Assembly (NCBI GenBank): GCA_021801125.1
Contig: JAJYYI010000017.1
Coordinates: 33,095-97,094, forward strand
Direction of reading: 5' to 3'
Length of the DNA stretch: 64,000 bases
DNA from: Deltaproteobacteria bacterium
GTDB lineage: Bacteria > Desulfobacterota > Binatia > Binatales > Binataceae
A model generated the notes under the pieces. The model had not been told where the DNA came from. It saw nothing but the letters and a program-made list of their open reading frames with translations, and did no database searches. The position numbers and the translations under genes were made by a program. This document shows, piece after piece, positions 1 through 48,673 of this stretch; the first letter of the stretch is position 1, and each line of letters opens with the position of its first letter.

Positions 1-249
1 CCCCAAACGAAGCATCAGGAAGACCGGCGCCGCGACGTAACCGAGGTAGTCGACTACGTTGTCCAGCAGGACACCGTCAAAATAGGCCAATCGTCGATCG
101 ACGCTCAGCGCGCGAGCGGCAAAACCGTCGGTCGAGTCGATCACGGTGGCCAGCGTGAGAGTCATAAACGCCGCACGCGCCCGATAATCAGCGGCGAATA
201 GCAGAGCGGCAAGCCCTAACACGGCGCCGAGAGCAGTGTAGAGATGCAC
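1..249 (-). CDS. CDP-alcohol phosphatidyltransferase family protein; 3' end (C-terminus) lies beyond the window edge. Probable GTG start near 249.
   Basis: Hand translation of the minus strand gives a TM helix (LYTALGAVLGLAALLFAA) followed by DGFAARALSVDRRLAYFDGVLLDNVVD, which fits the D-G-x2-A-R...G-x3-D-x3-D signature of CDP-OH phosphotransferases. The reading frame is open to position 1. It is missing from the ORF track because it has no stop inside the window. Confidence 0.55.
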   Translation of the reverse strand, partial: MHLYTALGAVLGLAALLFAADYRARAAFMTLTLATVIDSTDGFAARALSVDRRLAYFDGVLLDNVVDYLGYVAAPVFLMLRLG

Positions 250-332
250 GCCCCAGCTCGCTAGGCTGCTCCAGTCAATCGGGCCTTGCCGCCGGCAGCT
301 TTTCGCCGGCGCCGCCCCTTGACCTTCGCCGC

Positions 333-866
333 TTAACACCGGCCGCGAACGGAGCGGAAATATTCCTCCAGAGTTGAGACGAAAGGCCCGCAGTTGCGCC
401 GATCTTTCACGAATTTCGTTGCCTCCTCCAGCGAAAGCTTTTGGTGCCAATGGAGGAACGCGATCGCCACCGTCGGAGCGCGGTTGACGCCTGCGTTGCA
501 GTGGAGGTAAATGCGCTCCTTGGCCGCAGCGAGATCGGCTAGAACTTCCAGCGCCTCGCCCAGATGCAACACCACGTCGTCGCTGCTGCCATCGGCGATG
601 GGGGTGCGTACGAACCGGATGCCGTGTTCGCTGTATCCGTGTTGCAGGTCAACTATAGAGAGCCCGTTGACGACAAGGTCCCGGTCGTCTTGCAGGCTGT
701 GCACCGCGCTCACGCGCAACGCCTCTTTGAGCCAGCTGATATCACCTACCTGCGGATATTCGCCGATCAAAAGCTCCGGCAAAAGTTCGGTTACTGAAGG
801 ACGCCTGTCGCCGCGCACGAAACGGGGTTCCGAGTCAGGCCTAAGAGTCCACAAATTTTGCGTCAT
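333..866 (-). CDS. Dual-specificity / protein-tyrosine phosphatase (CX5R P-loop)
   Basis: HCNAGVNRAPT matches the HC(X)5R catalytic loop of DSP/PTP-fold phosphatases. It lies immediately upstream of, and co-directional with, the CDP-alcohol phosphatidyltransferase. Confidence 0.7.
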   Translation of the reverse strand: MTQNLWTLRPDSEPRFVRGDRRPSVTELLPELLIGEYPQVGDISWLKEALRVSAVHSLQDDRDLVVNGLSIVDLQHGYSEHGIRFVRTPIADGSSDDVVLHLGEALEVLADLAAAKERIYLHCNAGVNRAPTVAIAFLHWHQKLSLEEATKFVKDRRNCGPFVSTLEEYFRSVRGRC

Positions 867-1173
867 GAGCGTCTCCGCTCGCGCTCCTTGAAACTAAGCT
901 CGCGGCCAAGCACTTAGGTAAATACCGTCCCGCACGACGCGCAGATCCCGCGAGCAAAGCGCCCGAGGCGCCGCTCCGCCTAACAAGAGTACCAGTTTTG
1001 CCCGCAGCCGGCATCAAACCCACGCCACCCGGCTGAACAGCCGCGCCCACGGCCTCTTTCTGATCCCGTGCGCCCGAACCCGTCTTCTCTGAGCGAGAGT
1101 CAACTTCCGCTTCTCCCCGCGAAGGGCGTAATCCTTATTTCCCCAGGCGAAGGTCGACGCGTGACGAGTGATG

Positions 1174-4100
1174 CTACGACGAATCGCGCGCCGCGGCCGA
1201 CGCAGCCGGTTTCGTAGGCGCGTCATTGACGGATTCAGAATCGATTCCATCCGCGTTCGAGGCCACGGGTTCAGCGTCGGGCGCGGTGTGATTCGTCCCA
1301 CTCGATTCAATCCCGTCGCCATTGCCGGCCGCCACCACGGCTTCGACCCTGCTCGACGCGCGGAAGACGGCACGCGGCGCCGAAGAGCGCTGCGCCAGCC
1401 CCACAACTGCCTGACGCATCACCTCGGCCGCCTTGCGATAAACGCCGTACGACTCGCCATCGCTTGCCGCGCGAACGAGCGCCTCGTTGGTTATAACCGG
1501 ACCGATTCGCAATTCCACTGGGTAACGACGGGGTAGCAACTGCCCCTTGCCAAGAGCGTGATAAGTGCCCTGCACATATATCGGCAGCACATCACACCCG
1601 CTGCGCAGCGCAAGATATCCGGCTCCGCTCTTGAACTCCTGAATCGCGCCGTGCGGCGTGCGCGTACCCTCAGGAAACATCAGGACGCTCGCCCCACGAG
1701 CCAGCTTCTCCAGCGCCGCGTTCAGCGAATCGAGCTGCGCTCCCTCGCGGTCAAACGGAATGAGGGGACTGAAGTTAGCGGCGAGGAACCGTCGCGCGGA
1801 GCTGTTGAAAAAGTAATCCTTCGCCGCGAGCACTACCAGTTGCTCGCCAAGCTTGCCCAACGCGGAGCGAACCAAAACAAAGTCCAGATGGCTTGCGTGA
1901 TTCGCGATCACCAGCACGTTGCGGTTCGCGGGAATATTGCCCCGCCCCAGAACCCGCGGCTTAAGCCATCGGTCGACCGTGCTCTCAATCGCGCCTGCCA
2001 GGATGCTCTGCCCGACGCGGCGCAAGGCTTGCGGCAGGGCCGGCGTGTAGGGCTCGGCGAACGCGGCGTAAGAGGGAAGGCGCGGCCGGCTTGAGTCGCG
2101 AGCGATCAGCCCTTGAAGGTCGCCCGCCGTGCTGATCGCCGTCAGTTGATCCGCGGTTGGAGCCCATCCGCTATGCTGCGCGATTATCTCGGCCAACTCG
2201 GCGAGCGCTAGCGAATCAAGTCCGAGGTCCTCGAACAGACGCGAACCGCTGGAGATCTCGCGCGCGCCTCCGGCAACTTGCTCCAACGCCTCCGCCAGCC
2301 AGCTCGCCAGGTCGGACGTTCCGCCGGCCTCTGCGCCGGCGCTTTTTGCCACCATCGCGCGCAATGTCGAGGCCACTTCAGCGCGTTTAACTTTCCGTGT
2401 CCGTGTGCGCGGAAGCTCACCGCCCGTGAAGCGCAGAATATGCACCTGCTTGTACGGCGGCAGCGCGCGATTTACTTGGTCGAAATGCGCGCGAATCTTT
2501 TCTTCGACGGCGCGCTGGCTCTCGCCATGGGCGTAGGCCGGGACCACCAGCGCTGCGGCCTGCTCGCCCGAACCGACCTTGAGCGCCACGATCGCAAGCT
2601 CCTTGATCTGTGGCAAGCGTCCGTAGAACTCCTCGAGTTCGTCGATGTAGATATTGTTGCCGCCCGCGTCAACGATCACGTCCTTGCTGCGCCCGACGAT
2701 GTACAGCCGCCCGCCGTCGTCGAACCGCCCGAGGTCTCCCGTGTGCAGCCAACCATCCTTGAGCGCCTGCTCGGTGGCGCTTTCGTTGCGGAAGTAGCCT
2801 TTCATCACGTTGCCGCCGCGGACCAGGATCTCTCCGGTCTCCCCGCCTTCGACCGCCTCGAGCTTGACCTCCAGGCCCGACAGCGGTTTCCCGACCGAGC
2901 CCAGCCGCAAATCCTCGTCCGGACGGGCCACGCTCACCACGGGCGCCGCTTCCGTCAACCCGTAGCCTTCGAGCAGTCTGAGGCCAATGTCGTTGAAGAA
3001 CTCGGCGGTCTCGCCCGGCAGCGCAGCACCGCCGCTTACCGCCAGACGCAGGCGCCCGCCGAGGGCCTCGTGCAGCGGGCGAAAGATGAGATTTCCCAGA
3101 TCGAGCCTCAGGTCCCGCTCCAGCGAGTGATTGAGCGTCCGCAGGCGCTCAAACGCCCCCTTGAACACCGTCCCGCGCCGCTCAATCTGCTCGAGGATTC
3201 GGCGGTGGATGGCCTGCCATATCGCGGGCACGCCTATCAGGGCCGTCGGCTTGACATCCGCCAGCGTTCGGCCGAGCGTTGCGGCACTCACGTTGCGCGG
3301 GTACACGATGTGCGCGCCGCTGGCCAGCGGCAGCAACATGCCGCACGTGAATTCGAAACAATGATGCAGCGGCAGCAGGGAGAGCACCGTGTCGGTCGGA
3401 TCGAGTTCGAAGATTCGCGAGAGCATCAGCACTTCGGCCGTAAAGTTGCCGTGCGTGAGCATCGCGCCTTTGGCCGAGCCGGTGGTGCCCGAAGTGAACA
3501 CCACCGAAGCGAGCGTGTCCTTGCTCCATTCGACCTTCGCCGGCGTTTTGCCGTGCAAGACAAACGGCCGGCGCAAATCCTCGAACGCCATCTCAACCAG
3601 CGCCGTGCCGCACGCCTCAGCCATCGGGCCCAACCGCTGCCGAAAACTGGCTGAACACAGCGCGGCTGTCGGCGAGGCGACGCGGCAGATAGCGCGCAAC
3701 TCGTCCGTCGAAAGCATGGGGTCCAGCGGCACCGCCACCGCTCCCGCACCGATCACCGCGAAGAAGCCCAACACCCAATCAGGAGAGTTCTCTCCCGCCA
3801 GTAATACCCGATCGCCTGTTTGAACGCCGCGGCTGGAAAGCATCAAGCTCGCGCGGCGCGCCGCGTCTCGCAGCTCCCGGTAGCTGAGCGTCGAGTGATG
3901 GCCTGAAGAATGACGCCAGCTTAGCGCCGGCTTCGCGCCGTGGCGCTCGGCGCTTTCATCCAACAGGTCGATGAGATGCCTGAACCTGAGCGGCTTCGCC
4001 CGCACGCGCCCTCGCGTGTGCAAATCCAAGCGCGGAAAAATGTGGCGGCGCAACCCTGGGATGTGGATGTTAACCCAGTAGTCGTGCCAATCCATCTTGT

Positions 4101-5622
4101 CAGGATCGAAGCGATGGACCTCGGCGTCAGCCGGACTTAACCGCTTATATAAAGCGCGAATGTTGCGGCTGTGGAAAATATAGGAGAAGTCCTGGATGTA
4201 CGGGCGATAAATATCAATGAGCGACTGCCCCAGACGAATGCGATCACTGGTTTGCGCCGCCCATCGCTCCAAGCGCCTTACCGCCGGCGCATCGCGCCCC
4301 ATCAGCAGCTGTCCCGCGCGGGCGGTCTGCGCCAACGCCCTGGGCAGCCCCCAGATCGCCGCCTCGTAGGTTTTATGGGAAACGGCGATGGGCTCCAGGT
4401 GCTGTGTGAGCAACTTTCCGGCGGTCTCACCATGCTCGCGCTGATGGCGCCGGTTGGCCACGGCGGTAAGCTCGATCAAGCGCTCCATGCGGAACGGGTT
4501 GGAGTCCGAAGAGCCGAGCTGGTAAATCGGTTCGTGACGACCCAGCAGCAGCGCAGCCAGAACGGGAAACATGGCGTGCGCCACGAGGTCCACCGGAATG
4601 ACGTCCAATATCAGCTCGCGGCGCGCGGGATAAAAGCGGTATCCCTCGCCCGACAGGTAGGTGAGCGGCGCGCTGGTGTTGACCCCTTGGTTCCATCCAG
4701 GGAAGGGATCTCTTATCGCGCTCTCGATTACCGCCGGGCGCACCACCGTCACTTTGAGCGTGTCGCGCGCGGCCAATACCAACTGCTCGCCCAAACTCTT
4801 GCTGTAGCTGTACGTATTGGGCCATCCCCAGTAAAGCGCGCGGCTGCGCCCTTCGCGCTTGAGTTCCTCCTCGAGCTGTTGCTTGGGCAACAGTTCTGCG
4901 CCGTCGCGCGCTTCGTCAAGGGCGGCGCCGTTTTCATCCTCGGGTTCCCTTGCGGCGCTCGACTCGATGCGCGATATCACCGCCTGGGCTTCGCGAATTT
5001 CGCGCTTCAGGCTGAAACGGCGCGCGCCCGGCTGCGGGCACCAATCCACCGGGATGTCGTCCTCATGCCGGTGGCCGTCGGCCGCGCCGGCAACGTAACA
5101 GGTCGAAATATGGAGCATCGGCGCACGTATTTTGCGGCAAAAGTCGAGCACATTGCCCGCCCCCAGCGTGTTAATCGCCAACGCCTTGTTAAGCGGCGCG
5201 TCGAAGTTCACCAATCCCGCGCAGTTAACGACCGCGTCTATCTGACCGCGCGTGAAGCGCGTCTGAGAATCAGTGACAAGGCCAGGCTCCGTGATGTCGC
5301 CGCATACGACGGTCAGCTTCTCCCGTACCCACCGGTCGAACGAGTCTCCCATCTGCTCGCGCAACGGGGCAAACGCGGGCGAGGCGAGCACCTCGCGCTC
5401 CAGCCGCTTGGGCCCCGAGCGCTGATCGCCGCGAACCAGCAGATAGACCTGTTCGACCTCGGGATGCTCGCGAAGAAGCAGATATAGAAAGACCTTACCG
5501 AGAAAGCCGGTAGCCCCGGTAAGCATGATGCGCCGTCCGCGGAAGATCTTTTCCAGCGGTGGAAGGCGGTCTCGTTGAGTTTTTCGTTGACCGACGCGCA
5601 ACAAATTATTGGACATCCGCAA
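1174..5622 (-). CDS. Multidomain lipid-biosynthesis enzyme resembling ElbD. Domains: N-terminal NAD(P)-binding fatty-acyl reductase (approx nt 5535-4065), acyl-AMP/CoA ligase (approx nt 3960-2385), phosphopantetheine carrier (approx nt 2325-2115), C-terminal PlsC-type acyltransferase (approx nt 2025-1425).
   Basis: TGATGFLGK Rossmann motif with the male-sterility/NAD_binding_4 region. AMP-binding core (FTSGTTGSAKGAMLTHGN ... GYGLTE ... HTGDLG). PP-binding LGLDSLALAEL (DSL serine). AGPAT motifs NHASHLD and FPEGTR. The frame is a continuous 1482-aa ORF. Confidence 0.85.
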   Translation of the reverse strand: MRMSNNLLRVGQRKTQRDRLPPLEKIFRGRRIMLTGATGFLGKVFLYLLLREHPEVEQVYLLVRGDQRSGPKRLEREVLASPAFAPLREQMGDSFDRWVREKLTVVCGDITEPGLVTDSQTRFTRGQIDAVVNCAGLVNFDAPLNKALAINTLGAGNVLDFCRKIRAPMLHISTCYVAGAADGHRHEDDIPVDWCPQPGARRFSLKREIREAQAVISRIESSAAREPEDENGAALDEARDGAELLPKQQLEEELKREGRSRALYWGWPNTYSYSKSLGEQLVLAARDTLKVTVVRPAVIESAIRDPFPGWNQGVNTSAPLTYLSGEGYRFYPARRELILDVIPVDLVAHAMFPVLAALLLGRHEPIYQLGSSDSNPFRMERLIELTAVANRRHQREHGETAGKLLTQHLEPIAVSHKTYEAAIWGLPRALAQTARAGQLLMGRDAPAVRRLERWAAQTSDRIRLGQSLIDIYRPYIQDFSYIFHSRNIRALYKRLSPADAEVHRFDPDKMDWHDYWVNIHIPGLRRHIFPRLDLHTRGRVRAKPLRFRHLIDLLDESAERHGAKPALSWRHSSGHHSTLSYRELRDAARRASLMLSSRGVQTGDRVLLAGENSPDWVLGFFAVIGAGAVAVPLDPMLSTDELRAICRVASPTAALCSASFRQRLGPMAEACGTALVEMAFEDLRRPFVLHGKTPAKVEWSKDTLASVVFTSGTTGSAKGAMLTHGNFTAEVLMLSRIFELDPTDTVLSLLPLHHCFEFTCGMLLPLASGAHIVYPRNVSAATLGRTLADVKPTALIGVPAIWQAIHRRILEQIERRGTVFKGAFERLRTLNHSLERDLRLDLGNLIFRPLHEALGGRLRLAVSGGAALPGETAEFFNDIGLRLLEGYGLTEAAPVVSVARPDEDLRLGSVGKPLSGLEVKLEAVEGGETGEILVRGGNVMKGYFRNESATEQALKDGWLHTGDLGRFDDGGRLYIVGRSKDVIVDAGGNNIYIDELEEFYGRLPQIKELAIVALKVGSGEQAAALVVPAYAHGESQRAVEEKIRAHFDQVNRALPPYKQVHILRFTGGELPRTRTRKVKRAEVASTLRAMVAKSAGAEAGGTSDLASWLAEALEQVAGGAREISSGSRLFEDLGLDSLALAELAEIIAQHSGWAPTADQLTAISTAGDLQGLIARDSSRPRLPSYAAFAEPYTPALPQALRRVGQSILAGAIESTVDRWLKPRVLGRGNIPANRNVLVIANHASHLDFVLVRSALGKLGEQLVVLAAKDYFFNSSARRFLAANFSPLIPFDREGAQLDSLNAALEKLARGASVLMFPEGTRTPHGAIQEFKSGAGYLALRSGCDVLPIYVQGTYHALGKGQLLPRRYPVELRIGPVITNEALVRAASDGESYGVYRKAAEVMRQAVVGLAQRSSAPRAVFRASSRVEAVVAAGNGDGIESSGTNHTAPDAEPVASNADGIDSESVNDAPTKPAASAAARDSS

Positions 5623-7267
5623 CCACCAGCGGTGGCAGGTGCAGGTAGGTGATGGTCGCCGAGCGTCCGATGTCGCCGGTGGCCATCGCGATAGCCTCTT
5701 CGACCGTGTCCGCCGCTTCCCAGCCTAGCCTCGCGGCGACCTGAGGATCTTCGCAACCAGCCGCGATCACGCGCCCCAGATGCTTGCGGCCGGGCTCGCC
5801 CCAGTACCACATGTAAAACGGATGCACGCCGTGGTACGCGTGACCGTACCGATACATATGAATGTACGTAGGATTGGCCGCAAACTCAGCTTCAAAGCGC
5901 TTGGACAGCTCCTCGGAGTCCGTGGTCTCTGCCAGGCATCGATGAAAGAACTCGATGTAGCTCGGATGATGCTCCGGGTGAAATTCGTTGCGCAGCGGGT
6001 GACATATGATCATCGTTCCGCCCGGGCGGACCAGAGGTTTGTACCGGTACATGTTGAACAGGTAGCCAAGCCCGGTACACTGCACCAGCACCGGATTCAT
6101 TACCGAATTGACGTTGTAAGGACAGACATACGGGACGCCGACGAGCAGAACGTCGGACTGTCCGCTGACCGGCACTGCGTATTGCTGGAACACGCGGTCT
6201 AGAGTTTTGCGATGCACGGCCTCGGTTTCTCCGGCCCATACGCCGGTCAACTCGTACGGCGCGGAGTAATGGTGCAACAGTTCGCGGCGCGTCCGATTAG
6301 ACATGTTCGCCAGCGTCCAGTTGAAGGCGCGAAGCCGCATGCGGTCCCATTCGTTGAACTCGTCTTCGTTCTTCTGCAGGAAGTCGAAGAAGCCCGAGTA
6401 CATGCGATTGTTGATCGACGTCTCAACCGTGAAGATGTTGAGCTCGCGACTGACGACCTTTCCAAGCCTGTCGACCGTGCTGTGAAGCGCCGAGCGATTC
6501 GGATCCATGTAAGAATGACATCCGCGCAGCGTGGCCGGATTATGGTGGTAACGCAAACTCTGATACGGCGCGAGGCCTACCGCCACCGACTTGTGCCCGC
6601 CATCCATCGGCACCAATGTCAAATTGACGTAGATCACCAGGTCGGAGTCGGCGGCGCGCTTTGAGAGCCACACTTCCTCGCCGTGCTCGGTCTTGCCGAG
6701 CATCGCGAGGTCGCCCGGGTTCTCGCCGTCGAAATTGTATAAGCGGTCGGGCCAGAACTGGGCAAAGGCGCGCTCGCCCACGGCGCGGCGAATCTCCGCG
6801 GCGGTCATGCGGCGATGCAGCGAGGTCGCTATGATGATGTGCACGTCGTCGACGCCGTAGTCCGCCAGCGTCTGCAGCACGATGTTGAGCACGCGCTCAC
6901 GCGCGTCGGGCCGCTGCATCGGCGGCAGCGGCAAGCTGATATCGTCGACGGCGATCGTCACCCGCATGTTCGGGTTAAGCTGCGCGAACAGCGGGTCGGC
7001 GTTCTCGGGGTGAAGCAGCGCGTAACGGATCGCGACCTCGGGATCGGGCAGCCCGTCCATCGGCGGCGGCGGATAAACGACGCGCGTGCCAGGCGGCAGC
7101 TTTTCTTCGAGGAATTCGTCGCCGTAAGCGATCAGGCGAGGCTTGGAGCGGCGCGTAAGAGTCACCACGAGATCACTGCGCGCGCCGATCTCATGAAGTA
7201 GTTCGGCCCGTTTGAGTTCCCTGAGTTTCGCTTCCGGAGCTGCCATTCGTCTGGCCACCGCGTACAC
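5606..7267 (-). CDS. LarA-family protein (lactate-racemase-like, putative nickel-pincer-nucleotide-dependent 2-hydroxyacid racemase/epimerase homologue), 553 aa
   Basis: An ATSLHRR motif (AT[GS]xHR) is followed 75 residues later by GGHKS. A His-His pair sits 15-16 residues after that Lys (KSVAVGLAPYQSLRYHH). This matches the His108/Lys184/His200 spacing of L. plantarum LarA as I recall it. The gene overlaps the ElbD-like gene start by 17 nt, which suggests translational coupling. Confidence 0.6.
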   Translation of the reverse strand: MYAVARRMAAPEAKLRELKRAELLHEIGARSDLVVTLTRRSKPRLIAYGDEFLEEKLPPGTRVVYPPPPMDGLPDPEVAIRYALLHPENADPLFAQLNPNMRVTIAVDDISLPLPPMQRPDARERVLNIVLQTLADYGVDDVHIIIATSLHRRMTAAEIRRAVGERAFAQFWPDRLYNFDGENPGDLAMLGKTEHGEEVWLSKRAADSDLVIYVNLTLVPMDGGHKSVAVGLAPYQSLRYHHNPATLRGCHSYMDPNRSALHSTVDRLGKVVSRELNIFTVETSINNRMYSGFFDFLQKNEDEFNEWDRMRLRAFNWTLANMSNRTRRELLHHYSAPYELTGVWAGETEAVHRKTLDRVFQQYAVPVSGQSDVLLVGVPYVCPYNVNSVMNPVLVQCTGLGYLFNMYRYKPLVRPGGTMIICHPLRNEFHPEHHPSYIEFFHRCLAETTDSEELSKRFEAEFAANPTYIHMYRYGHAYHGVHPFYMWYWGEPGRKHLGRVIAAGCEDPQVAARLGWEAADTVEEAIAMATGDIGRSATITYLHLPPLVVADVQ

Positions 7268-7584
7268 CCGTCAACTTCGCGCATGCGCCGCGCGCGCATC
7301 CGCAACCTTGGCCCAACGACCTATTAGCGAAGGTAGACCGCGCTCGCCGCCAGGCGCCTTGAGGCGTTCCCGCCGCTGTCCCAATAGTGCGCCACTCGCC
7401 TGACGCACTCGCCGCGCCTGAACCGAGCGAGAACGCGCGCTACCGAGCCCGCAATGCGGGGCTCGACGTTATTAGCTTCCCGCGGCCAAAAGTCCATATT
7501 CAGGTTCGCTCGCTCCCCGCACCGCCTCAGGCAAAGCCGGTGGTCAGAACAAGCGGAGCAAACCGACGCGAACGGCCTTGCGCT

Positions 7585-8349
7585 TCATACTCCGACCAAG
7601 TGGCGCGCGAACGACGTCGCCCCGCGCAACCGGCCGTCGCCCGCAAACCGTATCACGGGCCAATGCCGGGAGTGGGCGAAAGCTTCAAGCGCGTCGTCCG
7701 GATTGACCGCGACCGGATGGCCAACCGCGCACAGAAACGGAACATCGTAATACGAGTCGGCGTAACCCCAACAAGCGCTCAGGTCCAACCCGCGGCGAGC
7801 CGCATAGTCAGCGCACCACGCCGCCTTCTCGCTTCCCGCCATCACGGGCTCTTGCAACGCCCCGGTGGCCACGCCTTGGCGAAATACCAACCGGTTGGCG
7901 GCAAAGTCGGTCACGCCAAGCCGTCGCGCCAAAGGAGCAACCATAAAGTCCGGCGAACCGGTTACGAGCACTGGTTCGAGCCCAACCTCGCGGTTGCGTT
8001 CCAACAAATCAAGGGCTTGCGGGTAAAGCCGGCTCGTCATGACGTAGTCGCAATACTCCTCGCCGACTATCGCCAGGCGGTCGCGCGAAACACCCTTGAA
8101 AGTCTCGAAAATTGCCCGGTTCAGCAAGGCCCGATCGCTTCTCTCAGCCACGTACAAAACCGGCAAACGCCGGACCAAGCGCGCGAGATAGCTCACACGC
8201 CGGTTCCATTCACGCAACTTGCTGAAAACGAAAATCCCCGCGTCGACGAGATTTAGCTCCGCCAGCGTGCCGTCAAGATCGTAGAAAGCCACTCGTGGAC
8301 GAGCGGAATTTTTCGCAGGCCGACTCATCGCGTAGAATAGAACTGACAC
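7585..8349 (-). CDS. HAD-superfamily hydrolase, subfamily IB (phosphoserine-phosphatase-like). Alternative ATG start at 8328.
   Basis: FYDLDGTL motif I (DxDGT), a conserved downstream Lys, and an Asp motif (GDGxxD-like ... GYADSYYD) are present. It is the first gene of the apparent operon HAD / LarA-like / ElbD-like. Confidence 0.6.
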   Translation of the reverse strand: MSVLFYAMSRPAKNSARPRVAFYDLDGTLAELNLVDAGIFVFSKLREWNRRVSYLARLVRRLPVLYVAERSDRALLNRAIFETFKGVSRDRLAIVGEEYCDYVMTSRLYPQALDLLERNREVGLEPVLVTGSPDFMVAPLARRLGVTDFAANRLVFRQGVATGALQEPVMAGSEKAAWCADYAARRGLDLSACWGYADSYYDVPFLCAVGHPVAVNPDDALEAFAHSRHWPVIRFAGDGRLRGATSFARHLVGV

Positions 8350-8508
8350 GTCAGTCTAGTGAGCCGCTGGGCCGCGGTCAACGCCGAAACGGAGTGGTCA
8401 ACCGCGATGCGACGCGTGCCGCTTTCGCCTACGGTTGCGGCGTTTTCGGCGCTGGGCGATCGACGGCCGCAAATGCGTCCCACCAACGGCATTTCGCAAC
8501 AATTGTGA

Positions 8509-9135
8509 TCAGTGCGGCCGGTTATCGTGGTTGGTCTCGCCCGCGCGCAGCAACTCCGCAGTGGCGACGCCATTTAGTCCGAAGTTCAAGATTTCTTCGG
8601 CCAGATGGCTAATTTCGCGCTGCGGTTGCCGAAGGGTTTGCCCCGCCACCTCCTTGATGCCGCCGAGGATGCAGGCCGCAACCACTCGCGTGTCGCAGGA
8701 CCTAACCAATTTCATCTCCAACCCGAGATCGAGCGAGCGCTGGATCTGCTGGGTTATCTGACCGTAGAACTCGCGTATTCTTCCTTCGAACTCACGGTCG
8801 AGGTCGAGCGAATGGTTAAGCAGGATGTCGGTAAGCTCCCTCTCGGTGAGGACAAAGTCGAGTATTCGCAGGAGGTTGTTGCGCAGTTGCTCGGCAGCGG
8901 AAGGCTCGCCGGGGGCCATCCTGATGCGGTAGATGCGCTTCTCGATCTCCAACAACGCCTCGTTGAGCAGTTCCTCGAAAAGCTCTTTCTTGTTCTGGAA
9001 ATAAAGGTAAAACGTGCCGCGCGCGATCTTCGCTTGGGCCACTATGTCCGAGATGTTGGTGCGATGGTAACCCTTGCGCGCGAATAGTTTTTTGGCGTGG
9101 CGAAGAACTTGTGCGCGTCTGACCTGCCGTTCCAT
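8509..9135 (-). CDS. TetR/AcrR-family transcriptional regulator
   Basis: N-terminal HTH: AKKLFARKGYHRTNISDIVAQAKIARGTFYLYFQNKKELF is typical of TetR_N. Confidence 0.8.
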   Translation of the reverse strand: MERQVRRAQVLRHAKKLFARKGYHRTNISDIVAQAKIARGTFYLYFQNKKELFEELLNEALLEIEKRIYRIRMAPGEPSAAEQLRNNLLRILDFVLTERELTDILLNHSLDLDREFEGRIREFYGQITQQIQRSLDLGLEMKLVRSCDTRVVAACILGGIKEVAGQTLRQPQREISHLAEEILNFGLNGVATAELLRAGETNHDNRPH

Positions 9136-9328
9136 TGCTCAGGAGTATGCCGGTTCGAGTATAGCGCCTAAATACAAGCGTGTCATCGCAAGCGAGCGAA
9201 CCGACCGCCAGCGACATTTTGGCGGGTCAAGTTTCAGTGGGCAAGGGCATCGGCACCAAGCGGCTGATCAATCGAGCAGCGCGCGAGCAGAGCGCGCTGC
9301 CGAGCAGAACGCGCTGCCTCGACGAAGC

Positions 9329-10213
9329 TTATTCCATTTGCACCTCGGCGACTCCGTCTCGGATAACCCCCTGGCCCTGTGGGTTGGCGGTCTCGTAGAA
9401 GTAGGTGCGCCGCGAACGATCCCGCGCGCCGGGCCAGAGTGTTGTGGTCAGCGTCTGGCCCGGAAAAACCGGGCGCGCAAAACGCGCGTACAGGCGCTTA
9501 AGTCGCAATGGGTCTCTGCCGCACACTGCGTCAATCACCGCCTTTGACGCAAACGCCATCGTGCACAGTCCATGCACGATCACGCCGGGCAGTCCCGCCG
9601 CTTTGGCGGATTCCTGGCTGAGATGAATCGGATTGTTGTCGCCGGACGCTTTCGCGTAGCGCACCGCTTGATCAAAATCGAGTTGTTGGACGACCGTCGC
9701 CGCCTGTTCAGCGCGCAGCGCCTCGACAGCGAGCGCTTTTCGCGCTTCGCGCTTCTCGCGCGAAACCGCGGAGCGAGCGCGCGCCTTGTTCCGCGCGCGG
9801 ATGAACGCCGTGAAAACTATTCGCTGCACCTCGACGCGATCCTGATTAGAAGCGCGCAACTCAACGGCAAGCGTCTCGCCGTGAGCCATGACCTCAATCC
9901 GCATTATCCTGGCCACAGTGGAAATCACGTCATCCGGCCGGATCGGCGCCAGGTACTCCATGTCCTGTTCGCTGTGTAGAAGGCGGACGAGATCTACGCC
10001 GAGTTCGGGATCGCTGGCTACTTGGAGCACCGCCGGATAAGTAGCCACGGCGCCGAAAAGCGGCGGGGCACTAATCCCGCCCGCGCGCGAGACGTCCAGA
10101 AAAGCCGGGTTATCTTCGTTGCAGGCCGAGGCATATTCCGTAATCGCACCTTCGCTTACCCGGAATGTAGTCGTCGGATAAACCTTGCCGATACAGTTTT
10201 GGTTAAGCCCCAT
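9329..10213 (-). CDS. Double hot-dog MaoC-like (R)-specific enoyl-CoA hydratase/dehydratase. The start is taken at the internal ATG at 10213, which has a GGAG Shine-Dalgarno; the ORF track extends it to 10357.
   Basis: The C-terminal half carries the MaoC signature (GDNNPIHLSQESAKAAGLPGVIVHG). The N-terminal half is a second hot-dog fold. Confidence 0.7.
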   Translation of the reverse strand: MGLNQNCIGKVYPTTTFRVSEGAITEYASACNEDNPAFLDVSRAGGISAPPLFGAVATYPAVLQVASDPELGVDLVRLLHSEQDMEYLAPIRPDDVISTVARIMRIEVMAHGETLAVELRASNQDRVEVQRIVFTAFIRARNKARARSAVSREKREARKALAVEALRAEQAATVVQQLDFDQAVRYAKASGDNNPIHLSQESAKAAGLPGVIVHGLCTMAFASKAVIDAVCGRDPLRLKRLYARFARPVFPGQTLTTTLWPGARDRSRRTYFYETANPQGQGVIRDGVAEVQME

Positions 10214-10473
10214 TGCGTGCGTTTCGCTCCTTACACCGCACCGTAAAAAGTCGAGCCGACCGGCAAAGGGAATCAAGCGAGCGTATGCGAAGCCCTTGCC
10301 GAGATTCTGAACAATCCCGCTTACCAGCCCCGCCGAACAACGATACAAGCGGGGCAATGCTCATCGCGACCCAACCACTCTGGCATCCCGACTATGTTCG
10401 GCTCTTTAATCGTTCGGCTTCATGCAACACACAGCTAAAGGCATCTTTCATTCGAGCCTTGCACGCACTGCGC

Positions 10474-11625
10474 TCAAGCCACTTCCCGTCCCCCGATGAA
10501 AACAGCCTTTAGGTTGAGATCTCGATCGAGCACGAGCAGGTCCGCGCGCGCGCCCACGGCGATCGTTCCTTGTTGGCTAAGCCGCATAAGGCGCGCCGGA
10601 TTTTCCGCCGCCATGGCGACCGCCTGAGACAGACTTGCGCCGGTGACTTGAATCATCAGGCGCACCGCGTCGAGCAACGAGGTGAAGCTGCCAGCCAGGA
10701 CGCCGCTGTCGCACCGCGCGGCGCCTTCTCGCGCGCCCATCCCGCGCATTCTTTCGAACCCGCCCATCGCATCGGCGCCCGACGCCGTAAGCCGCTCTTT
10801 GCCGCTATCGCTCGGCGTCGCCACGCGGTCGCTGGTCAGTATCAGCCCTTGGTGGCCACGCGCGCGAAAGGCCAGCCGAAGCATCGCCGGATGCACGTGC
10901 GCGCCGTCCGCAATCAGTGCGGCAAGAGCCGCCGACGGCAACAGACCCGCCACGGCGACGCCGGGCGCGCGATGGTGAATAGGGCGCATCGCGTTGAACA
11001 GATGGGTGAACATGCGCGCACCCGCCGAAACGGCCTCCATCGCCTCTTCCAGCGTGGCGTCTGAATGGCCGATCGCGCTCACCACACCGCGCGCTGCAAG
11101 CCTGTTGATCGCCTCCCGCGCACCCGCCAGCTCGGCGGCCAGCGTCACCATGCGCAACTGTTCCATTGCAAGCACACGCTCAAGCGCCTCGCCTCGAGGC
11201 TCCAGATTAAAGCGCGGATGGATCCCCAATCGGGCGGGTGAAATAAAGGGTCCTTCCAGGTGCAAGCCGACAATCGCCGCCTGTGCCGCCTCGTGCTCGA
11301 GCATAACCGCGGCTTGGCACACCGCGTCATGCACCCGCTCCAGGCGGTCAAGCGGCGCCGTAATCGCCGTCGGCAAAAAGGCCGTGACGCCCTCAGCCGC
11401 CAAGGAGCGCGCGATTGCGGCGATTTCGCCGGGCGAAGCCGCCATCACGTCGTGAGAACCCACGCCGTTCACTTGCAGGTCGATTAGGCCTGGGACAATC
11501 TGATCATCGCCTGCTGGCAGCGCCGGCTCGACCGCTTCGATCCGTTCCGAGAAAGTCACCCTGCCCGAGAGACTCAGACCGTCGGCACAGACAAGCTGGC
11601 CACGCAACGTCCTAGTCTCCAGCAT
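10474..11625 (-). CDS. nagA: N-acetylglucosamine-6-phosphate deacetylase
   Basis: Amidohydrolase fold with GLIDLQVNG and HLEGPFISP motifs characteristic of NagA. Confidence 0.8.
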   Translation of the reverse strand: MLETRTLRGQLVCADGLSLSGRVTFSERIEAVEPALPAGDDQIVPGLIDLQVNGVGSHDVMAASPGEIAAIARSLAAEGVTAFLPTAITAPLDRLERVHDAVCQAAVMLEHEAAQAAIVGLHLEGPFISPARLGIHPRFNLEPRGEALERVLAMEQLRMVTLAAELAGAREAINRLAARGVVSAIGHSDATLEEAMEAVSAGARMFTHLFNAMRPIHHRAPGVAVAGLLPSAALAALIADGAHVHPAMLRLAFRARGHQGLILTSDRVATPSDSGKERLTASGADAMGGFERMRGMGAREGAARCDSGVLAGSFTSLLDAVRLMIQVTGASLSQAVAMAAENPARLMRLSQQGTIAVGARADLLVLDRDLNLKAVFIGGREVA

Positions 11626-11638
11626 CGCTGTTCAAAGC

Positions 11639-11893
11639 TTAGTTGGCACCGAAGCGCTCCGCCAACAGGCGGGAAAAGCGCGGCGTGTATATCAGGTCGA
11701 AAACGGCCTCTTTGTCCGGAAACATCGCCAGCACCGCGCGCTTCAGCGCCAGCACATGCGCCCAAGCCTCGTCCAGCGTAATGCGGGGGTCTTGCGCGAT
11801 CACCGCAGTCGTCAGGTCAACCAGCAGATGCATCCGGCGGATCATGCGTTCTTCCAAAGCTAATTCGGCGTCGCGACCATGGTCGCCCATTGC
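11639..11893 (-). CDS. Hypothetical small protein (~84 aa). The longer track ORF has an Arg/Pro-rich, probably non-coding N-terminus.
   Basis: Only the C-terminal 84 codons read like a protein (MGDHGRDAELALEERMIRRMHLL...). No recognisable family. Confidence 0.3.
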   Translation of the reverse strand, partial: AMGDHGRDAELALEERMIRRMHLLVDLTTAVIAQDPRITLDEAWAHVLALKRAVLAMFPDKEAVFDLIYTPRFSRLLAERFGAN

Positions 11894-12122
11894 ACTTTTA
11901 CCTCGTGGTTGCGATTGTTGATGCGAGACAACTATAGCATCGCGGACGCCATGTTTTTTAAAGGGCTGCGCGCACGGCGCCCCGAAACAGAAGAAGCGCA
12001 AACGAAAGAATTCCGCTGCGACTTCCGAAAGGAAGTTCGCTGCTGGCCGTCGCCGACGGCGCAACGAAGGCGCAGCCTGACCGCTTCGACGCGAACGCTC
12101 CGGCAAGAGGTTCATAGCCGAG

Positions 12123-13031: not shown

Positions 13032-13426
13032 CCATAGCTTCGGGCCGATAGCCGTCGTTTCCGCCGCCAGCGTCGAGCGGGCCCGAGCGCAATTACCAGT
13101 GTTCAAGCGCTAACTATAGCCTATTTGAAGCCGCAGGTATGCTACAGCGCCTCCGCTCGGGGCGGCCCCAGGCACGCCAAGGATTTGCATATTGATTTCG
13201 AAGAGCTTAATTGATGTGATTTTGCTTCTAGAAACCTTTTTAGCGCTAAAATCCCACTGTCCTTTCAGCCTTCCGCTCTGCCCAGCTAAGGGGCGCTGGT
13301 ATTGTCCGGCCATGCTATGCCATAATGGAGGTGCTGCTTCTATCTCAGCGGGCGCAAGAGAGGGGCGGATTCACCCCCAAAGCTCCCGGCTAACCCAGCG
13401 CGTGCGATCTTATGGCAAGGTGCGGT

Positions 13427-13918: not shown

Positions 13919-14097
13919 GGCAGTGCACGCCCGCGTCCGCCATTCTATGACCCCAGGCGCCGACCAGCGGCAAGCATGCTCTAGCGCTCGCTCGCTTTCC
14001 GCACGATCCTGTAGCCCCCGCGTGGGTCGCGAGCGGACGTTCCTTCGACCGACGCGCGCGCATGCCACCCCGAAGGTTGCCGTCCTGGCCTGATTTC

Positions 14098-14814: not shown

Positions 14815-14816
14815 GC

Positions 14817-15641
14817 TCACGACGCGAGCGGCGATGCGAGCCCTTCGTTGAGCGAGCCCGACCTGAAGCCCTTTAGGTCGAGCGCCACAAAGCGAAACCC
14901 GATTCGGCGAAATTCCCGGAAGACGAGGTCCGCGAGTTCCGGCTCGATTATCCTCCCCATCTCATCGCGTTCAAGCTCAAGGCGGGCAACGTCGTCGTGG
15001 TAGCGTACGCGGGCCACCTTGAAGCCCAGGCACCGCAAAAGCCGCTCGCCCTCTTCAACCTTTGCAAGCGCTTCGGCCGTAATCTTGGTGCCGTAGGGAA
15101 AACGGGAGGATAGACACGGCGAAGCCGGCCTGTCCCACGTCGGAAGCGCCAGCGAGCGCGAGAGCTCGCGAATCTCCGCTTTCCTCAAACCCGCCTCGAC
15201 CAGCGGGTGGCGCACGCGGCGTTGCTCGGCGGCCCTGATCCCAGGCCGGTAGTCCCCAAGGTCATCAAGGTTGAGGCCGTCCAAGATATGCTCGACGCCA
15301 AGCTGGCGCGCTCTCTCCTCGCAAATCGTGTAAAGGTTGCTCTTACATAGATAGCATCGGTTGGTCGGGTTCGCGGCGTAACCGGGTATGACCAGCTCGT
15401 TAGACTCAACCAGCATATGGCGCGCTCCGATCAGCGCCACCAGCGCGCGAGCGGACTCCAGGTCCTCCCGCGGCATCGTCGGCGAGGTCGTCGTCAGCGC
15501 CAGGACGTTGTCGCCCAGGACTTGATGGGTCACCTTGAGCAGGAAGGAGGAATCGACGCCGCCCGAAAACGCGACGATCGCAGATTTCATCGGCTCAAGC
15601 AGACTGCGCAAACGGTTCAGTTTCTCGACAAGCTCGCTCAT
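14817..15641 (-). CDS. larE: LarE-family ATP-dependent sulfur insertase (PP-loop ATP pyrophosphatase, TIGR00268-like), probably the multi-Cys (Fe-S) type. Start at the ATG with a GGAGAGG Shine-Dalgarno.
   Basis: SGGVDSS PP-loop. PASPCLSSRFPYG matches the LarE catalytic-Cys region. An additional CYLCKSNLYTIC cysteine cluster is present. Confidence 0.7.
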   Translation of the reverse strand: MSELVEKLNRLRSLLEPMKSAIVAFSGGVDSSFLLKVTHQVLGDNVLALTTTSPTMPREDLESARALVALIGARHMLVESNELVIPGYAANPTNRCYLCKSNLYTICEERARQLGVEHILDGLNLDDLGDYRPGIRAAEQRRVRHPLVEAGLRKAEIRELSRSLALPTWDRPASPCLSSRFPYGTKITAEALAKVEEGERLLRCLGFKVARVRYHDDVARLELERDEMGRIIEPELADLVFREFRRIGFRFVALDLKGFRSGSLNEGLASPLAS

Positions 15642-15785
15642 AGCAGGACCTCTCCGGTCCAGGCTTGACACATCCGTCAACACTTTCGCAAGCCCTCGCC
15701 TCGCGTGCCAAAGGCACAGAGCGACGCGCTAGGAAGGAACCGGACCCGACGGGCCGCACGCGAAGCAGGGCCACTTGCGCGGGCA

Positions 15786-16730: not shown

Positions 16731-16802
16731 TAAATCATACGAGCCCTCGGGAGGCGAACTACCCGCGCGTAAACCCACCTCACCCTAACCGCCACCCCAC
16801 GC

Positions 16803-48639: not shown

Positions 48640-48673
48640 TGGGCCTAACGGTATCGCGAAGGAACTAGCTTAA

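What the first reader, a model, noticed from the sequence alone, without database searches (positions are those of the whole stretch)
5606..7267. LarA-family (nickel-pincer-nucleotide racemase-like) protein translationally coupled to the ElbD-like lipid enzyme
The 553-aa protein carries ATSLHRR (AT[GS]xHR), then 75 residues later GGHKS, then His-His 15-16 residues after the Lys. This matches the His108 / Lys184 / His200 constellation that tethers and coordinates the NPN cofactor in lactate racemase. LarA homologues are now known to racemise or epimerise diverse 2-hydroxy acids. One fused into an operon with an ether-lipid-type megasynthase suggests stereo-inversion at a secondary hydroxyl of a lipid precursor. 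Candidates are the C2 hydroxyl of a glycerol(-phosphate) backbone or a 2-hydroxy fatty acid. No characterised LarA homologue has such a substrate, so this is an attractive undescribed function. The protein also has ~60-aa N-terminal and ~70-aa C-terminal extensions relative to LarA.
Basis: partly seen in the sequence, partly recalled or inferred. Interest (0 to 1): 0.8.

Follow-up and report, generated by a model that had tools for sequence, protein, structure and literature searches.

The report
ElbC-type nickel-pincer enzyme in ether-lipid operon
The gene is a real lactate-racemase-family protein, an orthologue of the uncharacterised ElbC gene of the bacterial ether-lipid (elb) operon. It keeps the residues that hold the nickel cofactor but lacks those needed to racemise a 2-hydroxy acid, so it probably carries out a different, still unknown step in ether-lipid synthesis.

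Summary
The ORF is real but lies on the minus strand. It is most likely 546 aa (ATG at 7246), not 553.

**What it is**
- It matches NCBIfam NF052592 (LarAH14/15/16 family) at 820 bits, above the cutoff of 740.
- An AlphaFold model (pLDDT 94) matches only LarA structures.
- The equivalents of LarA Asp72, His108, Lys184 and His200 are conserved in 96-100% of 213 relatives.
- His174, Arg75 and Lys298 are absent across the family, which argues against a canonical 2-hydroxy-acid racemase.

**Context**
- The gene order is TetR, HAD, LarAH, then a FAR-ACS-ACP-acyltransferase gene. This order is kept in about 75 Binataceae genomes.
- Nine of ten loci from other lineages, including myxobacteria, keep HAD-LarAH beside ElbD-type functions. 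There it corresponds to elbB-elbC-elbD-elbE.
- The window protein is 48% identical to M. xanthus MXAN_1529, the gene next to elbD (MXAN_1528).

**What is already known**
- The family (Desguin 2020, groups 14-16) and the operon (ElbC, "unknown function") are both catalogued.
- No held paper connects the two.

**Proposed function (inferred, not shown)**
- Cofactor-mediated transient oxidation of a glycerol-phosphate-type intermediate during ether-bond formation.

The parts
5606..7246 (-). LarA-superfamily protein of 546 aa (maximal ORF extends to the GTG at 7267). It is the ElbC orthologue and belongs to the LarAH14/15/16 family. Key codons: Asp102 6941-6943, Leu105 (LarA Arg75 position) 6932-6934, His144 6815-6817, Thr210 (LarA His174 position) 6617-6619, Lys219 6590-6592, His235 6542-6544, Asn384 (LarA Lys298 position) 6095-6097.
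1174..5616 (-). ElbD-like multidomain enzyme of 1480 aa. Domain order: fatty-acyl reductase (NAD_binding_4 + Sterile), AMP-binding acyl synthetase, PP-binding carrier, AGPAT-type acyltransferase. Its ATG overlaps the LarAH stop by 11 nt.
   Evidence: Pfam domains. Junction sequence. Overlap conserved. Called as 1480 aa. The domain order matches published ElbD descriptions (PMC9131029, PMC9426513).
7585..8349 (-). HAD-superfamily hydrolase, ElbB-like. The maximal ORF is 254 aa; gene callers give 235-247 aa. The overlapping + strand ORF 7387..8256 is a shadow ORF.
   Evidence: Pfam PF12710, E 2e-29. The minus-strand frame is conserved at 54-84% identity across Binataceae loci, against 26-58% for the + strand ORF. 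HAD precedes LarAH in L081-L085 and L087-L091.
8509..9135 (-). TetR-family regulator at the head of the cluster. It is weakly FadR-like.
   Evidence: Pfam TetR_N, E 1e-16; NCBIfam FadR-type model 63 bits, below its cutoff. It is conserved upstream of HAD in Binataceae loci. A TetR gene also sits next to the cluster in L082 and L087.
333..866 (-). Dual-specificity-phosphatase-fold protein downstream of the ElbD-like gene. It is a conserved neighbour in Binataceae, and whether it belongs to the operon is uncertain.
   Evidence: Pfam DSPc, E 1e-16. It is present downstream of the ElbD-like gene in most of the long Binataceae loci.
14817..15683 (-). LarE, the sulfur-insertion enzyme of NPN biosynthesis. 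It lies 7.5 kb away in an unrelated neighbourhood and is the only NPN-biosynthesis gene in the window.
   Evidence: TIGR00268, 324.5 bits against a cutoff of 150. It carries a CxxC motif plus a third Cys. Its neighbours are IspD and CysK.

Best explanation
**Identity (shown).** The gene encodes the Binataceae orthologue of ElbC. ElbC is the uncharacterised protein encoded between elbB (HAD hydrolase) and elbD (FAR-ACS-ACP-acyltransferase) in the myxobacterial ether-lipid operon. It belongs to the LarA (lactate racemase) superfamily, Desguin groups 14/15/16.

**Active site (shown).**
- It retains the residues that tether and coordinate the nickel-pincer nucleotide cofactor: Lys219 (tether), His235 (Ni ligand) and Asp102 (ribose).
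- It retains one catalytic base, His144.
- It lacks the second catalytic His and both residues that bind a substrate carboxylate in LarA.

**Mechanism (inferred).**
- The cofactor acts as a transient hydride store. His144 deprotonates a secondary hydroxyl, the hydride moves to the cofactor, and a keto intermediate forms. The hydride is returned after a chemical step.
- The substrate is not a free 2-hydroxy acid.
- From the operon, the most likely substrate is a glycerol-3-phosphate-derived intermediate oxidised at C2 to a DHAP-like ketone.
- That ketone would allow the fatty aldehyde or alcohol made by ElbD to be joined as an sn-1 alkyl ether.
- On this reading ElbC fills the slot that alkyl-DHAP synthase (AGPS) fills in the other M. 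xanthus ether-lipid operon and in eukaryotes.

**Confidence by part.** Identity as an ElbC-type LarA homologue is about 0.9. Cofactor binding is about 0.7. The specific ether-forming role is about 0.25.
For: **Family and fold**
- NF052592 scores 819.8 bits against a cutoff of 740, full length.
- The AF2 model has pLDDT 94.1 and pTM 0.92.
- All 19 significant Foldseek PDB hits are LarA-family. The best is 9q3k (TM 0.84 normalised to target), and 5HUQ gives TM 0.79.

**Residues**
- The profile alignment to 5HUQ gives D102=D72, H144=H108, K219=K184 and H235=H200.
- The same alignment gives L105=R75 and T210=H174.
- Conservation in 213 relatives:

| Position | Residues found |
|---|---|
| D102 | 100% |
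| H144 | 96% |
| K219 | 98% |
| H235 | 97% |
| 105 | L/V/M/T/A, never Arg |
| 210 | Asn in 202, never His |

- Desguin 2020 Dataset S2 gives the same picture for groups 14/15, including K298 replaced by N.
- Gatreddi 2025 states that groups 14 and 15 lack the His174 equivalent.

**Operon**
- TetR-HAD-LarAH-ElbD-like is present in every Binataceae locus long enough to show it.
- HAD-LarAH-ElbD-epimerase is found in Myxococcota, Longimicrobiaceae and other loci.
- Anaeromyxobacter paludicola has the full epimerase-HAD-LarAH-ElbD-epimerase order, which corresponds to elbA-E.

**Orthology**
- MXAN_1529 is listed as a group-15 LarAH.
- elbD is MXAN_1528.
- elbC flanks elbD and is of unknown function.
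- The window protein is 48% identical to MXAN_1529 over 402 aa, E 2e-151.

**Pathway gap**
- An elbD-dependent i15:0 aldehyde is reported.
- The second operon, MXAN_1676-1674, encodes AGPS, a FAR-acyltransferase and an SDR.

**Other support**
- The sister family (group 17, the closest solved structures) neighbours triose-phosphate enzymes.
- LarE is present in the window.
Against: - No biochemical or genetic data exist for ElbC in the held literature.
- The only purified family member, Frankia LarAH14, showed no activity. The paper gives no data on whether it bound the cofactor.
- The position that binds the cofactor phosphate in LarA (Arg75, or Lys in group 17) is hydrophobic here. Cofactor binding is therefore not guaranteed.
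- larB and larC were not found among the window ORFs tested, and I could not search the rest of the genome.
- This particular protein has Thr at position 210, where 95% of the family has Asn.
- Binataceae loci lack an adjacent ElbE-type reductase.
- In one MAG, LarAH and HAD occur without an adjacent ElbD.
- I had no model coordinates, so the active-site equivalences rest on sequence and profile alignment plus a global fold match, not on residue-level superposition.
Confidence: 0.55

Rival explanations
1. The protein is a true racemase or epimerase that inverts the secondary hydroxyl of a lipid precursor, for example glycerol-3-phosphate to glycerol-1-phosphate, a lyso-lipid, or a 2-hydroxyacyl chain.
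For: It has a LarA fold with the cofactor-binding residues and one catalytic His. Its lipid-gene context is conserved. All characterised LarA homologues invert a C2 stereocentre. Many invariant His and Tyr residues in the C-terminal domain could supply a second base. The M. xanthus neutral ether lipid TG-1 is written as 'rac' in PMC9131029.
Against: The opposite-face base His174 is absent in all 213 relatives examined. The carboxylate binders Arg75 and Lys298 are also absent. The M. xanthus ether phospholipids are named as ordinary 1-alkyl-2-acyl-sn-glycero-3-phosphoethanolamines, which need no inversion. Gatreddi 2025 argues that single-His LarA homologues cannot run the two-base racemase cycle in both directions.
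Confidence: 0.15
2. The protein has no cofactor and is non-catalytic. It acts as a scaffold, chaperone or regulatory partner of ElbD, and has kept the LarA fold but not its chemistry.
For: Degenerate relatives exist. Desguin group 16 has lost Lys184 in all four listed members and His108 in three of them, yet still sits beside AGPAT and HAD genes. P0058 has lost both residues. The Arg75 position is hydrophobic. Published elb genetics did not single out elbC. LarAH14 was inactive.
Against: Asp, His, Lys and His at the cofactor site are conserved at 96-100% across distant lineages. That level is not expected without selection on the cofactor site. LarE is encoded in the same window.
Confidence: 0.1
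3. The enzyme acts on a phosphorylated sugar or polyol (a carbohydrate-type substrate, as speculated for group 17). It would supply a head group or precursor rather than take part in ether-bond formation.
For: The closest solved structures are the group-17 enzymes, for which a phospho-sugar ligand and a carbohydrate context were proposed. The most constant neighbour is a HAD phosphatase. In L086 the LarAH-HAD pair occurs without ElbD.
Against: Acyl-activating, acyltransferase or reductase genes neighbour the gene in nearly every locus examined. No sugar kinases, transporters or glycolytic genes do.
Confidence: 0.1
4. It is an ordinary lactate or 2-hydroxy-acid racemase, as many automatic annotations name it.
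For: JGI and NCBI name relatives 'nickel-dependent lactate racemase' or 'lactate racemase domain-containing protein'.
Against: It scores only 62.6 bits on the LarA equivalog model, whose cutoff is 460. His174, Arg75 and Lys298 are missing. LarAH14 was inactive on lactate, malate, 2-hydroxyglutarate, phenyllactate, 2-hydroxyisovalerate, 2-hydroxyisocaproate and gluconate.
Confidence: 0.03

Closest known systems
MXAN_1529 (ElbC) of the Myxococcus xanthus elbA-E ether-lipid operon; Desguin 2020 LarAH group 15
   Same: It is 48% identical over the 402 aa available, E 2e-151. It holds the same position between a HAD gene and the FAR-ACS-ACP-acyltransferase gene. It has the same active-site pattern: D, hydrophobic residue, H, no His174, K, H, and K298 replaced by N.
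   Different: The phylum differs (Binataceae versus Myxococcota). The window cluster has a TetR gene upstream, no adjacent ElbA- or ElbE-type epimerase, and a 338-nt gap between HAD and LarAH. Position 210 is Thr rather than Asn.
LarAH14 of Frankia sp. (Franean1_4168), Desguin 2020 group 14
   Same: It falls in the same NCBIfam family (NF052592). It has the same residue pattern and similar neighbours: AGPAT, HAD and thioester reductase.
   Different: It is actinobacterial. It is the only member purified, and it showed no activity on seven 2-hydroxy-acid assays.
Single-histidine LarA-like enzymes LarASp and LarABw (PDB 9Q3K/9Q2U and 9Q3J), group 17
   Same: These are the closest solved structures (profile E 3e-50; Foldseek E 2e-32, TM 0.84). 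They share the C-terminal-domain insertions and the ...YRY.hA.H..H.F... motif. They also lack the second catalytic His.
   Different: Identity is only about 20%. Group 17 keeps a Lys at the Arg75 position and an Asn in a loop one residue longer. Its neighbours are triose-phosphate and glycolytic genes, not lipid genes.
Lactate racemase LarA of Lactiplantibacillus plantarum (PDB 5HUQ)
   Same: It shares the two-domain fold (TM 0.79). It also shares the Asp72, His108, Lys184 and His200 equivalents.
   Different: Identity is about 16%. His174, Arg75, Gln295 and Lys298 are not conserved. The window protein is about 120 aa longer through an N-terminal extension of about 35 aa and internal insertions.
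Alkyl-dihydroxyacetone-phosphate synthase (AGPS; MXAN_1676 in M. xanthus)
   Same: This is a functional analogy only. AGPS occupies the equivalent slot in the alternative M. xanthus operon (AGPS, FAR-acyltransferase, SDR). It forms the ether bond on a C2-keto glycerol backbone.
   Different: It is an unrelated flavoprotein fold. No sequence or structural similarity was found, and the analogy is inference.

Membership tests
LarA (NPN-dependent racemase/epimerase) superfamily | Lar_N domain and the overall two-domain LarA fold | tested here: met
   Pfam PF09861, E 2e-33. The AF2 model (pLDDT 94) matches only LarA-family PDB entries at E<=1e-3, with TM 0.72-0.84 normalised to target.
LarA (NPN-dependent racemase/epimerase) superfamily | Lysine that forms the thioamide tether to the cofactor (LarA Lys184) | tested here: met
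   Lys219 aligns with Lys184. It is Lys in 208 of 213 relatives.
LarA (NPN-dependent racemase/epimerase) superfamily | Histidine ligand to nickel (LarA His200) and ribose-binding Asp72 | tested here: met
   His235 aligns with His200 and Asp102 with Asp72. They are conserved in 207/213 and 213/213 relatives.
LarA (NPN-dependent racemase/epimerase) superfamily | First catalytic histidine (LarA His108) | tested here: met
   His144 in ATSLHRR aligns with ATGFHRP of 5HUQ. It is His in 205 of 213 relatives.
Canonical two-base 2-hydroxy-acid racemases (LarA, Mar, Hgr, GntE, Sar) | Second catalytic histidine (LarA His174) | tested here: not met
   The aligned position is Thr210. It is Asn in 202 of 213 relatives and never His, and the loop is one residue shorter. 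Published alignments show a gap there for groups 14/15.
Canonical two-base 2-hydroxy-acid racemases (LarA, Mar, Hgr, GntE, Sar) | Carboxylate/phosphate-binding Arg75 and catalytic-site Lys298 | tested here: not met
   Arg75 is replaced by Leu105; the family has L/V/M/T/A there and never Arg. Lys298 is replaced by Asn in groups 14/15 in Desguin Dataset S2, and this corresponds to the invariant Asn384 here.
NCBIfam NF052592, LarAH14/15/16 family | Full-length score above the curated cutoff | tested here: met
   819.8 bits against a cutoff of 740, residues 34-553 of the 553-aa ORF matching profile positions 2-520 of 520.
NPN-dependent enzymes in general | The cofactor biosynthesis genes larB, larC and larE are present in the same genome | tested here: inconclusive
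   larE is present at 14817..15683. No AIR-carboxylase-type larB or DUF111-type larC was found among the window ORFs scanned. The rest of the genome could not be searched.
NPN-dependent enzymes in general | Protein actually carries nickel and the cofactor | not testable with these tools
   This requires purification with LarBCE co-expression. The literature held gives no loading data for groups 14-16.
ElbC of the elb ether-lipid operon | Encoded between a HAD hydrolase gene (elbB) and the FAR-ACS-ACP-acyltransferase gene (elbD) | tested here: met
   The window has HAD at 7585..8349, LarAH at 5606..7246 and the ElbD-like gene at 1174..5616, all on the minus strand. The same order occurs in Anaeromyxobacter, Pendulispora and Myxococcota loci.
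ElbC of the elb ether-lipid operon | Sequence orthology to M. xanthus ElbC | tested here: met
   48% identity, E 2e-151, to MXAN_1529. MXAN_1529 is the locus tag next to elbD = MXAN_1528. The assignment MXAN_1529 = elbC is inferred from adjacency plus the review's description. The original Lorenzen 2014 paper was not held.
ElbC of the elb ether-lipid operon | Requirement for ether-lipid synthesis | not testable with these tools
   No elbC mutant is described in the held literature. elbB insertion effects were attributed to polarity on elbD.

The most novel reading that the evidence does not exclude
ElbC is the missing ether-bond-forming enzyme of the aerobic bacterial ElbD pathway. It would use the nickel-pincer nucleotide as an internal hydride shuttle. 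First it oxidises C2 of a glycerol-3-phosphate-derived intermediate to the ketone. The fatty aldehyde or alcohol delivered by ElbD is then coupled at sn-1, and the hydride is returned. This would be the first enzyme of this cofactor class acting on a non-carboxylate, lipid-pathway substrate and doing something other than stereo-inversion. It would also make bacterial ether-lipid synthesis nickel-dependent in Myxococcota, Binataceae, Longimicrobiaceae and Frankia-type actinobacteria.
Probability: 0.2. Interest if true: 0.85.

Novelty: new member of a known kind. Interest (0 to 1): 0.6.

Why it matters
**The open question.** How aerobic bacteria make the alkyl ether bond through the ElbD pathway is unknown. 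The M. xanthus review states that the steps from fatty acid to alkyl ether are unknown.

**The missed link.** The literature on elb-type clusters discusses elbB, elbD and elbE and leaves elbC as 'unknown function'. The nickel-pincer literature lists the same protein family as groups 14-16, 'unknown function', with lipid-type neighbours shown only in a supplementary table. Putting the two together gives a concrete, testable candidate for the missing chemistry.

**What would follow.**
- Ether-lipid production would be predicted to depend on nickel and on larB, larC and larE.
- The known reaction scope of the cofactor would extend beyond 2-hydroxy-acid inversion.

**This gene in particular.** The gene in this window is an ordinary member of that family. 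The value lies in the family-level connection, not in this locus.

Tried and rejected
1. **larB/larC in the window.** I scanned about 55 ORFs against Pfam and NCBIfam and found neither.
2. **RNA element near the cluster.** An Rfam scan of 1-16000 found nothing, including in the 338-nt HAD-LarAH gap.
3. **Finding M. xanthus ElbC by homology search.** The top-120 lists for P0118 and P0211 did not name M. xanthus. I resolved this through Desguin Dataset S2, which contains MXAN_1529.
4. **Lorenzen 2014, the original elb paper.** It is not held.
5. **'LarAH15' of JBC 2024 (Phytophthora gluconate 2-epimerase).** I considered it as a characterised family member and rejected it.
   - It is described as lying in the GntE branch with a GntE-like pocket.
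   - The 2020 group 15 is 12 myxobacterial sequences.
   - Its sequence was not in the held supplement.
6. **An adjacent ElbE-type epimerase in Binataceae.** No suitable ORF lies between the ElbD-like gene and the phosphatase in L003 or L009.
7. **Residue-level structural superposition on 5HUQ.** Model coordinates are not exported. The equivalences therefore rest on HMM alignments and published alignments.
8. **Literature linking the two fields.** I found no papers combining 'lactate racemase' with ElbD, or DUF2088 with 'ether lipid'. A broader search listed no nickel-pincer paper on ether lipids. None combined LarB/C/E with Myxococcus.

Full report
**1. The observation**

The ORF at 5606..7267 exists but is on the minus strand. 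Its maximal form is 553 aa from a GTG.

The likely start is the ATG at 7246, giving 546 aa:
- Almost all close homologues are 546 aa and begin at that Met.
- Independent gene callers on ten metagenomic contigs call exactly this 546-aa protein.

In 546-aa numbering the motifs are as follows:
- ATSLHRR is at residues 140-146.
- GGHKS is at 216-220, with Lys219 75 residues after His144.
- His234 and His235 lie 15 and 16 residues after the Lys.

The family assignment is far beyond chance:
- Pfam Lar_N scores E 2e-33.
- NCBIfam NF052592, 'NPN-dependent hydroxyacid isomerase, LarAH14/15/16 family', scores 819.8 bits against a curated cutoff of 740 over the full length.

The window is about 61% G+C. 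By its closest relatives it comes from a Binataceae bacterium.

**2. Fold and active site**

An AlphaFold2 model built on 75 relatives is confident, with pLDDT 94.1 and pTM 0.92. All 19 significant Foldseek hits in the PDB are LarA-family proteins:
- The best are the 'single catalytic histidine' LarA-like enzymes 9Q3K and 9Q3J (TM 0.82-0.84 normalised to target).
- Isosphaera LarA follows.
- L. plantarum LarA 5HUQ gives TM 0.79.

A profile of the family aligned to 5HUQ gives these equivalences. Conservation is from 213 full-length relatives.

| Window residue | LarA residue | Role in LarA | Conservation in 213 relatives |
|---|---|---|---|
| Asp102 | Asp72 | ribose binding | 100% |
| His144 | His108 | catalytic base | 96% |
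| Lys219 | Lys184 | cofactor tether | 98% |
| His235 | His200 | nickel ligand | 97% |
| Leu105 | Arg75 | carboxylate/phosphate binding | L/V/M/T/A, never Arg |
| Thr210 | His174 | second catalytic base | Asn in 202, never His |

- LarA Arg75 corresponds to a hydrophobic residue.
- LarA His174 corresponds to Thr210, in a loop one residue shorter.
- Desguin 2020 Dataset S2 gives the same pattern for groups 14 and 15: D, I/L/V, H, gap, gap, L/F, K, H. It also shows Lys298 replaced by Asn, which corresponds to the invariant Asn384 here.
- Gatreddi et al. 2025 state explicitly that groups 14 and 15 lack the His174 equivalent.

The claimed ~70-aa C-terminal extension is not there:
- The C-termini align.
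- The N-terminal extension is about 35 aa.
- The remaining extra length is internal insertions, partly shared with the 9Q2U/9Q3J family.

**3. Genomic context**

On the minus strand the window reads, in order:

| Coordinates | Product |
|---|---|
| 8509-9135 | TetR regulator |
| 7585-8349 | HAD hydrolase |
| 5606-7246 | LarAH |
| 1174-5616 | 1480-aa protein: fatty-acyl reductase (NAD_binding_4 + Sterile), AMP-binding, PP-binding, AGPAT-type acyltransferase |
| 333-866 | dual-specificity-phosphatase-fold protein |

The + strand ORF 7387-8256 is a shadow of the HAD gene. The minus-strand frame is the conserved one.

The ATG of the big gene overlaps the LarAH stop by 11 nt. The same overlap is the first ATG in about 60 of 76 Binataceae loci. 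Translational coupling is therefore plausible and conserved in this lineage.

The block TetR-HAD-LarAH-ElbD-like is present in every Binataceae locus long enough to show it. Synteny upstream of TetR is not shared, even with the closest locus found, L001 at 94% identity.

Outside Binataceae:
- HAD-LarAH-[FAR-ACS-ACP-AT]-epimerase, or a variant with split ElbD-type genes, recurs in a Longimicrobiaceae MAG, three Myxococcota or 'Deltaproteobacteria' MAGs, Pendulispora rubella, Anaeromyxobacter paludicola and several unassigned contigs.
- One locus has the functions split into separate acyltransferase, AMP-binding, HAD and LarAH genes.
- One has LarAH and HAD without ElbD.

**4. Identification as ElbC**

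- The M. xanthus elb operon is described as elbA (NAD epimerase), elbB (HAD), elbC (unknown function, flanking elbD), elbD (FAR-ACS-ACP-AGPAT) and elbE (NAD epimerase).
- Anaeromyxobacter paludicola shows exactly epimerase-HAD-LarAH-ElbD-epimerase.
- Desguin 2020 Dataset S2 lists MXAN_1529 as a group-15 LarAH. All 12 group-15 members are myxobacteria.
- elbD is MXAN_1528.
- The window protein is 48% identical to MXAN_1529 over 402 aligned residues, E 2e-151.
- The group-15 neighbour table lists two epimerases, HAD, a long-chain acyl-CoA synthetase and a SWIB protein. That matches the locus seen.

I conclude that the window gene is the ElbC orthologue. The step MXAN_1529 = elbC is inferred from adjacency and from the review's description. 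The original paper was not available.

**5. What is already known**

- The family is catalogued as groups 14, 15 and 16, 'unknown function'.
- It has an NCBIfam model.
- One member, Frankia LarAH14, was purified, supplemented with cofactor, and found inactive on lactate, 2-hydroxyisovalerate, 2-hydroxyisocaproate, malate, 2-hydroxyglutarate, phenyllactate and gluconate.
- The neighbours AGPAT, HAD, acyl-CoA synthetase, thioester reductase and epimerase are tabulated in a supplement.
- On the lipid side, elbC is called a protein of unknown function. Cluster surveys discuss elbB, elbD and elbE.
- In the held library I found no paper connecting lactate racemase, DUF2088 or nickel-pincer with ElbD or ether lipids.
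- The 'LarAH15' of the 2024 JBC paper is a Phytophthora gluconate 2-epimerase in the GntE branch. It is not 2020 group 15 and should not be read as a characterised member of this family.

**6. Mechanism**

Shown:
- The cofactor-holding residues and one catalytic base are conserved.
- The second base and the carboxylate binders are absent.
- The partners are an acyl-activating, reducing and acyl-transferring megasynthase and a HAD phosphatase.
- A LarE gene is in the window.

Established knowledge: LarA-type enzymes use the cofactor as a transient hydride acceptor, giving a keto intermediate.

Inferred:
- His144 deprotonates a secondary hydroxyl of a non-carboxylate substrate and the hydride moves to the cofactor.
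- Given the context, the substrate is most plausibly a glycerol-3-phosphate-derived intermediate, oxidised at C2 to a DHAP-like ketone.
- A C2 ketone is what the flavoenzyme AGPS needs to build the sn-1 ether.
- M. xanthus's other ether-lipid operon encodes AGPS, a FAR-acyltransferase and an SDR. The elb operon encodes HAD, LarAH, FAR-ACS-ACP-AT and an SDR.
- By comparison, ElbC (with ElbB) occupies the AGPS slot.
- An elbD-dependent i15:0 aldehyde has been reported. It could be the partner.
- The sister family (group 17) neighbours triose-phosphate isomerase and GAPDH. That is consistent with C3-phosphate substrates in this branch of the superfamily.

This specific role is a hypothesis, at about 0.2-0.25.

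Weaknesses:
- The hydrophobic residue at the Arg75 position raises doubt about cofactor phosphate binding.
- There are no loading data for any family member.
- larB and larC were not found among the window ORFs tested.
- There is no adjacent ElbE in Binataceae.
- Degenerate paralogues exist that have lost the Lys and His.

**7. Verdict**

LarA family membership, cofactor-site residues and the ElbD coupling are correct. 'Undescribed' is incorrect at the family level. The stereo-inversion mechanism is disfavoured by the missing second base.
- This locus is a new member of a known but functionally unsolved family.
- The worthwhile point is that ElbC of the ether-lipid operon is a nickel-pincer-type enzyme, a link I did not find in the literature held. 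It makes the unknown ether-forming chemistry of the ElbD pathway directly testable.

Noticed in passing
window 333-866 (-): A dual-specificity-phosphatase-fold protein (Pfam DSPc, E 1e-16) lies downstream of the ElbD-like gene. It is conserved there in most of the long Binataceae loci, at variable distance. It could be a lipid-phosphate phosphatase belonging to the same cluster.
   Followed up: partly
window 7247-7584: A 338-nt non-coding gap separates the HAD stop from the LarAH start. Most Binataceae loci have only about 60-150 nt here, and in other phyla the two genes overlap or abut. There is no Rfam match, so this may be an internal promoter.
   Followed up: partly
window 9329-16778: The genes upstream of TetR are a MaoC/HadAB-like dehydratase, NagA, CarD, IspD, LarE and CysK. 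None is syntenic with any of the 80 Binataceae loci, including the closest one (94% identity). The proximity of LarE to the cluster therefore appears specific to this genome.
   Followed up: partly
window 14817-15683 (-): LarE carries a CxxC motif (CYLCKS) plus a third Cys (SPCLSS). This resembles the [4Fe-4S]-dependent LarE type described for Thermotoga rather than the single sacrificial-Cys type.
   Followed up: no
window 29590-31581 (-): A 663-aa protein has a Thaumatin-family domain (E 2e-26). This is an unusual domain for a bacterium.
   Followed up: no
window 36165-38741 (+): An 858-aa fusion combines a zinc ribbon, a Ser/Thr protein kinase, an adenylate/guanylate cyclase domain and a SPOR domain.
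   Followed up: no
window 47569-49606 (-): A PAD_porph (agmatine deiminase-type) gene sits next to a CN_hydrolase gene. This looks like the agmatine-to-putrescine pathway pair.
   Followed up: no
Desguin 2020 Dataset S2 group 16; protein P0058: Degenerate relatives have lost the cofactor-tethering Lys and/or the catalytic His. Group 16 (Frankia, Microlunatus, Propionibacterium) still neighbours AGPAT and HAD genes. P0058 (67% identical to the window protein) reads ATSLNRH and GGYRP. These look like pseudoenzyme paralogues.
   Followed up: partly
literature (PMC11770544 versus PMC7583248): There is a name collision. 'LarAH15' in the 2024 JBC paper is a Phytophthora gluconate 2-epimerase. 'Group 15' of the 2020 paper, and the NCBIfam name LarAH14/15/16, refer to the myxobacterial ElbC-type proteins.
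   Followed up: yes
L086 (CAWKVK010000001.1), locus coordinates 10001-13235: In one 6-Mb MAG contig the LarAH gene sits near a HAD gene, but no ElbD-type gene lies within 10 kb. The LarAH-HAD pair may therefore be the more constant unit.
   Followed up: no
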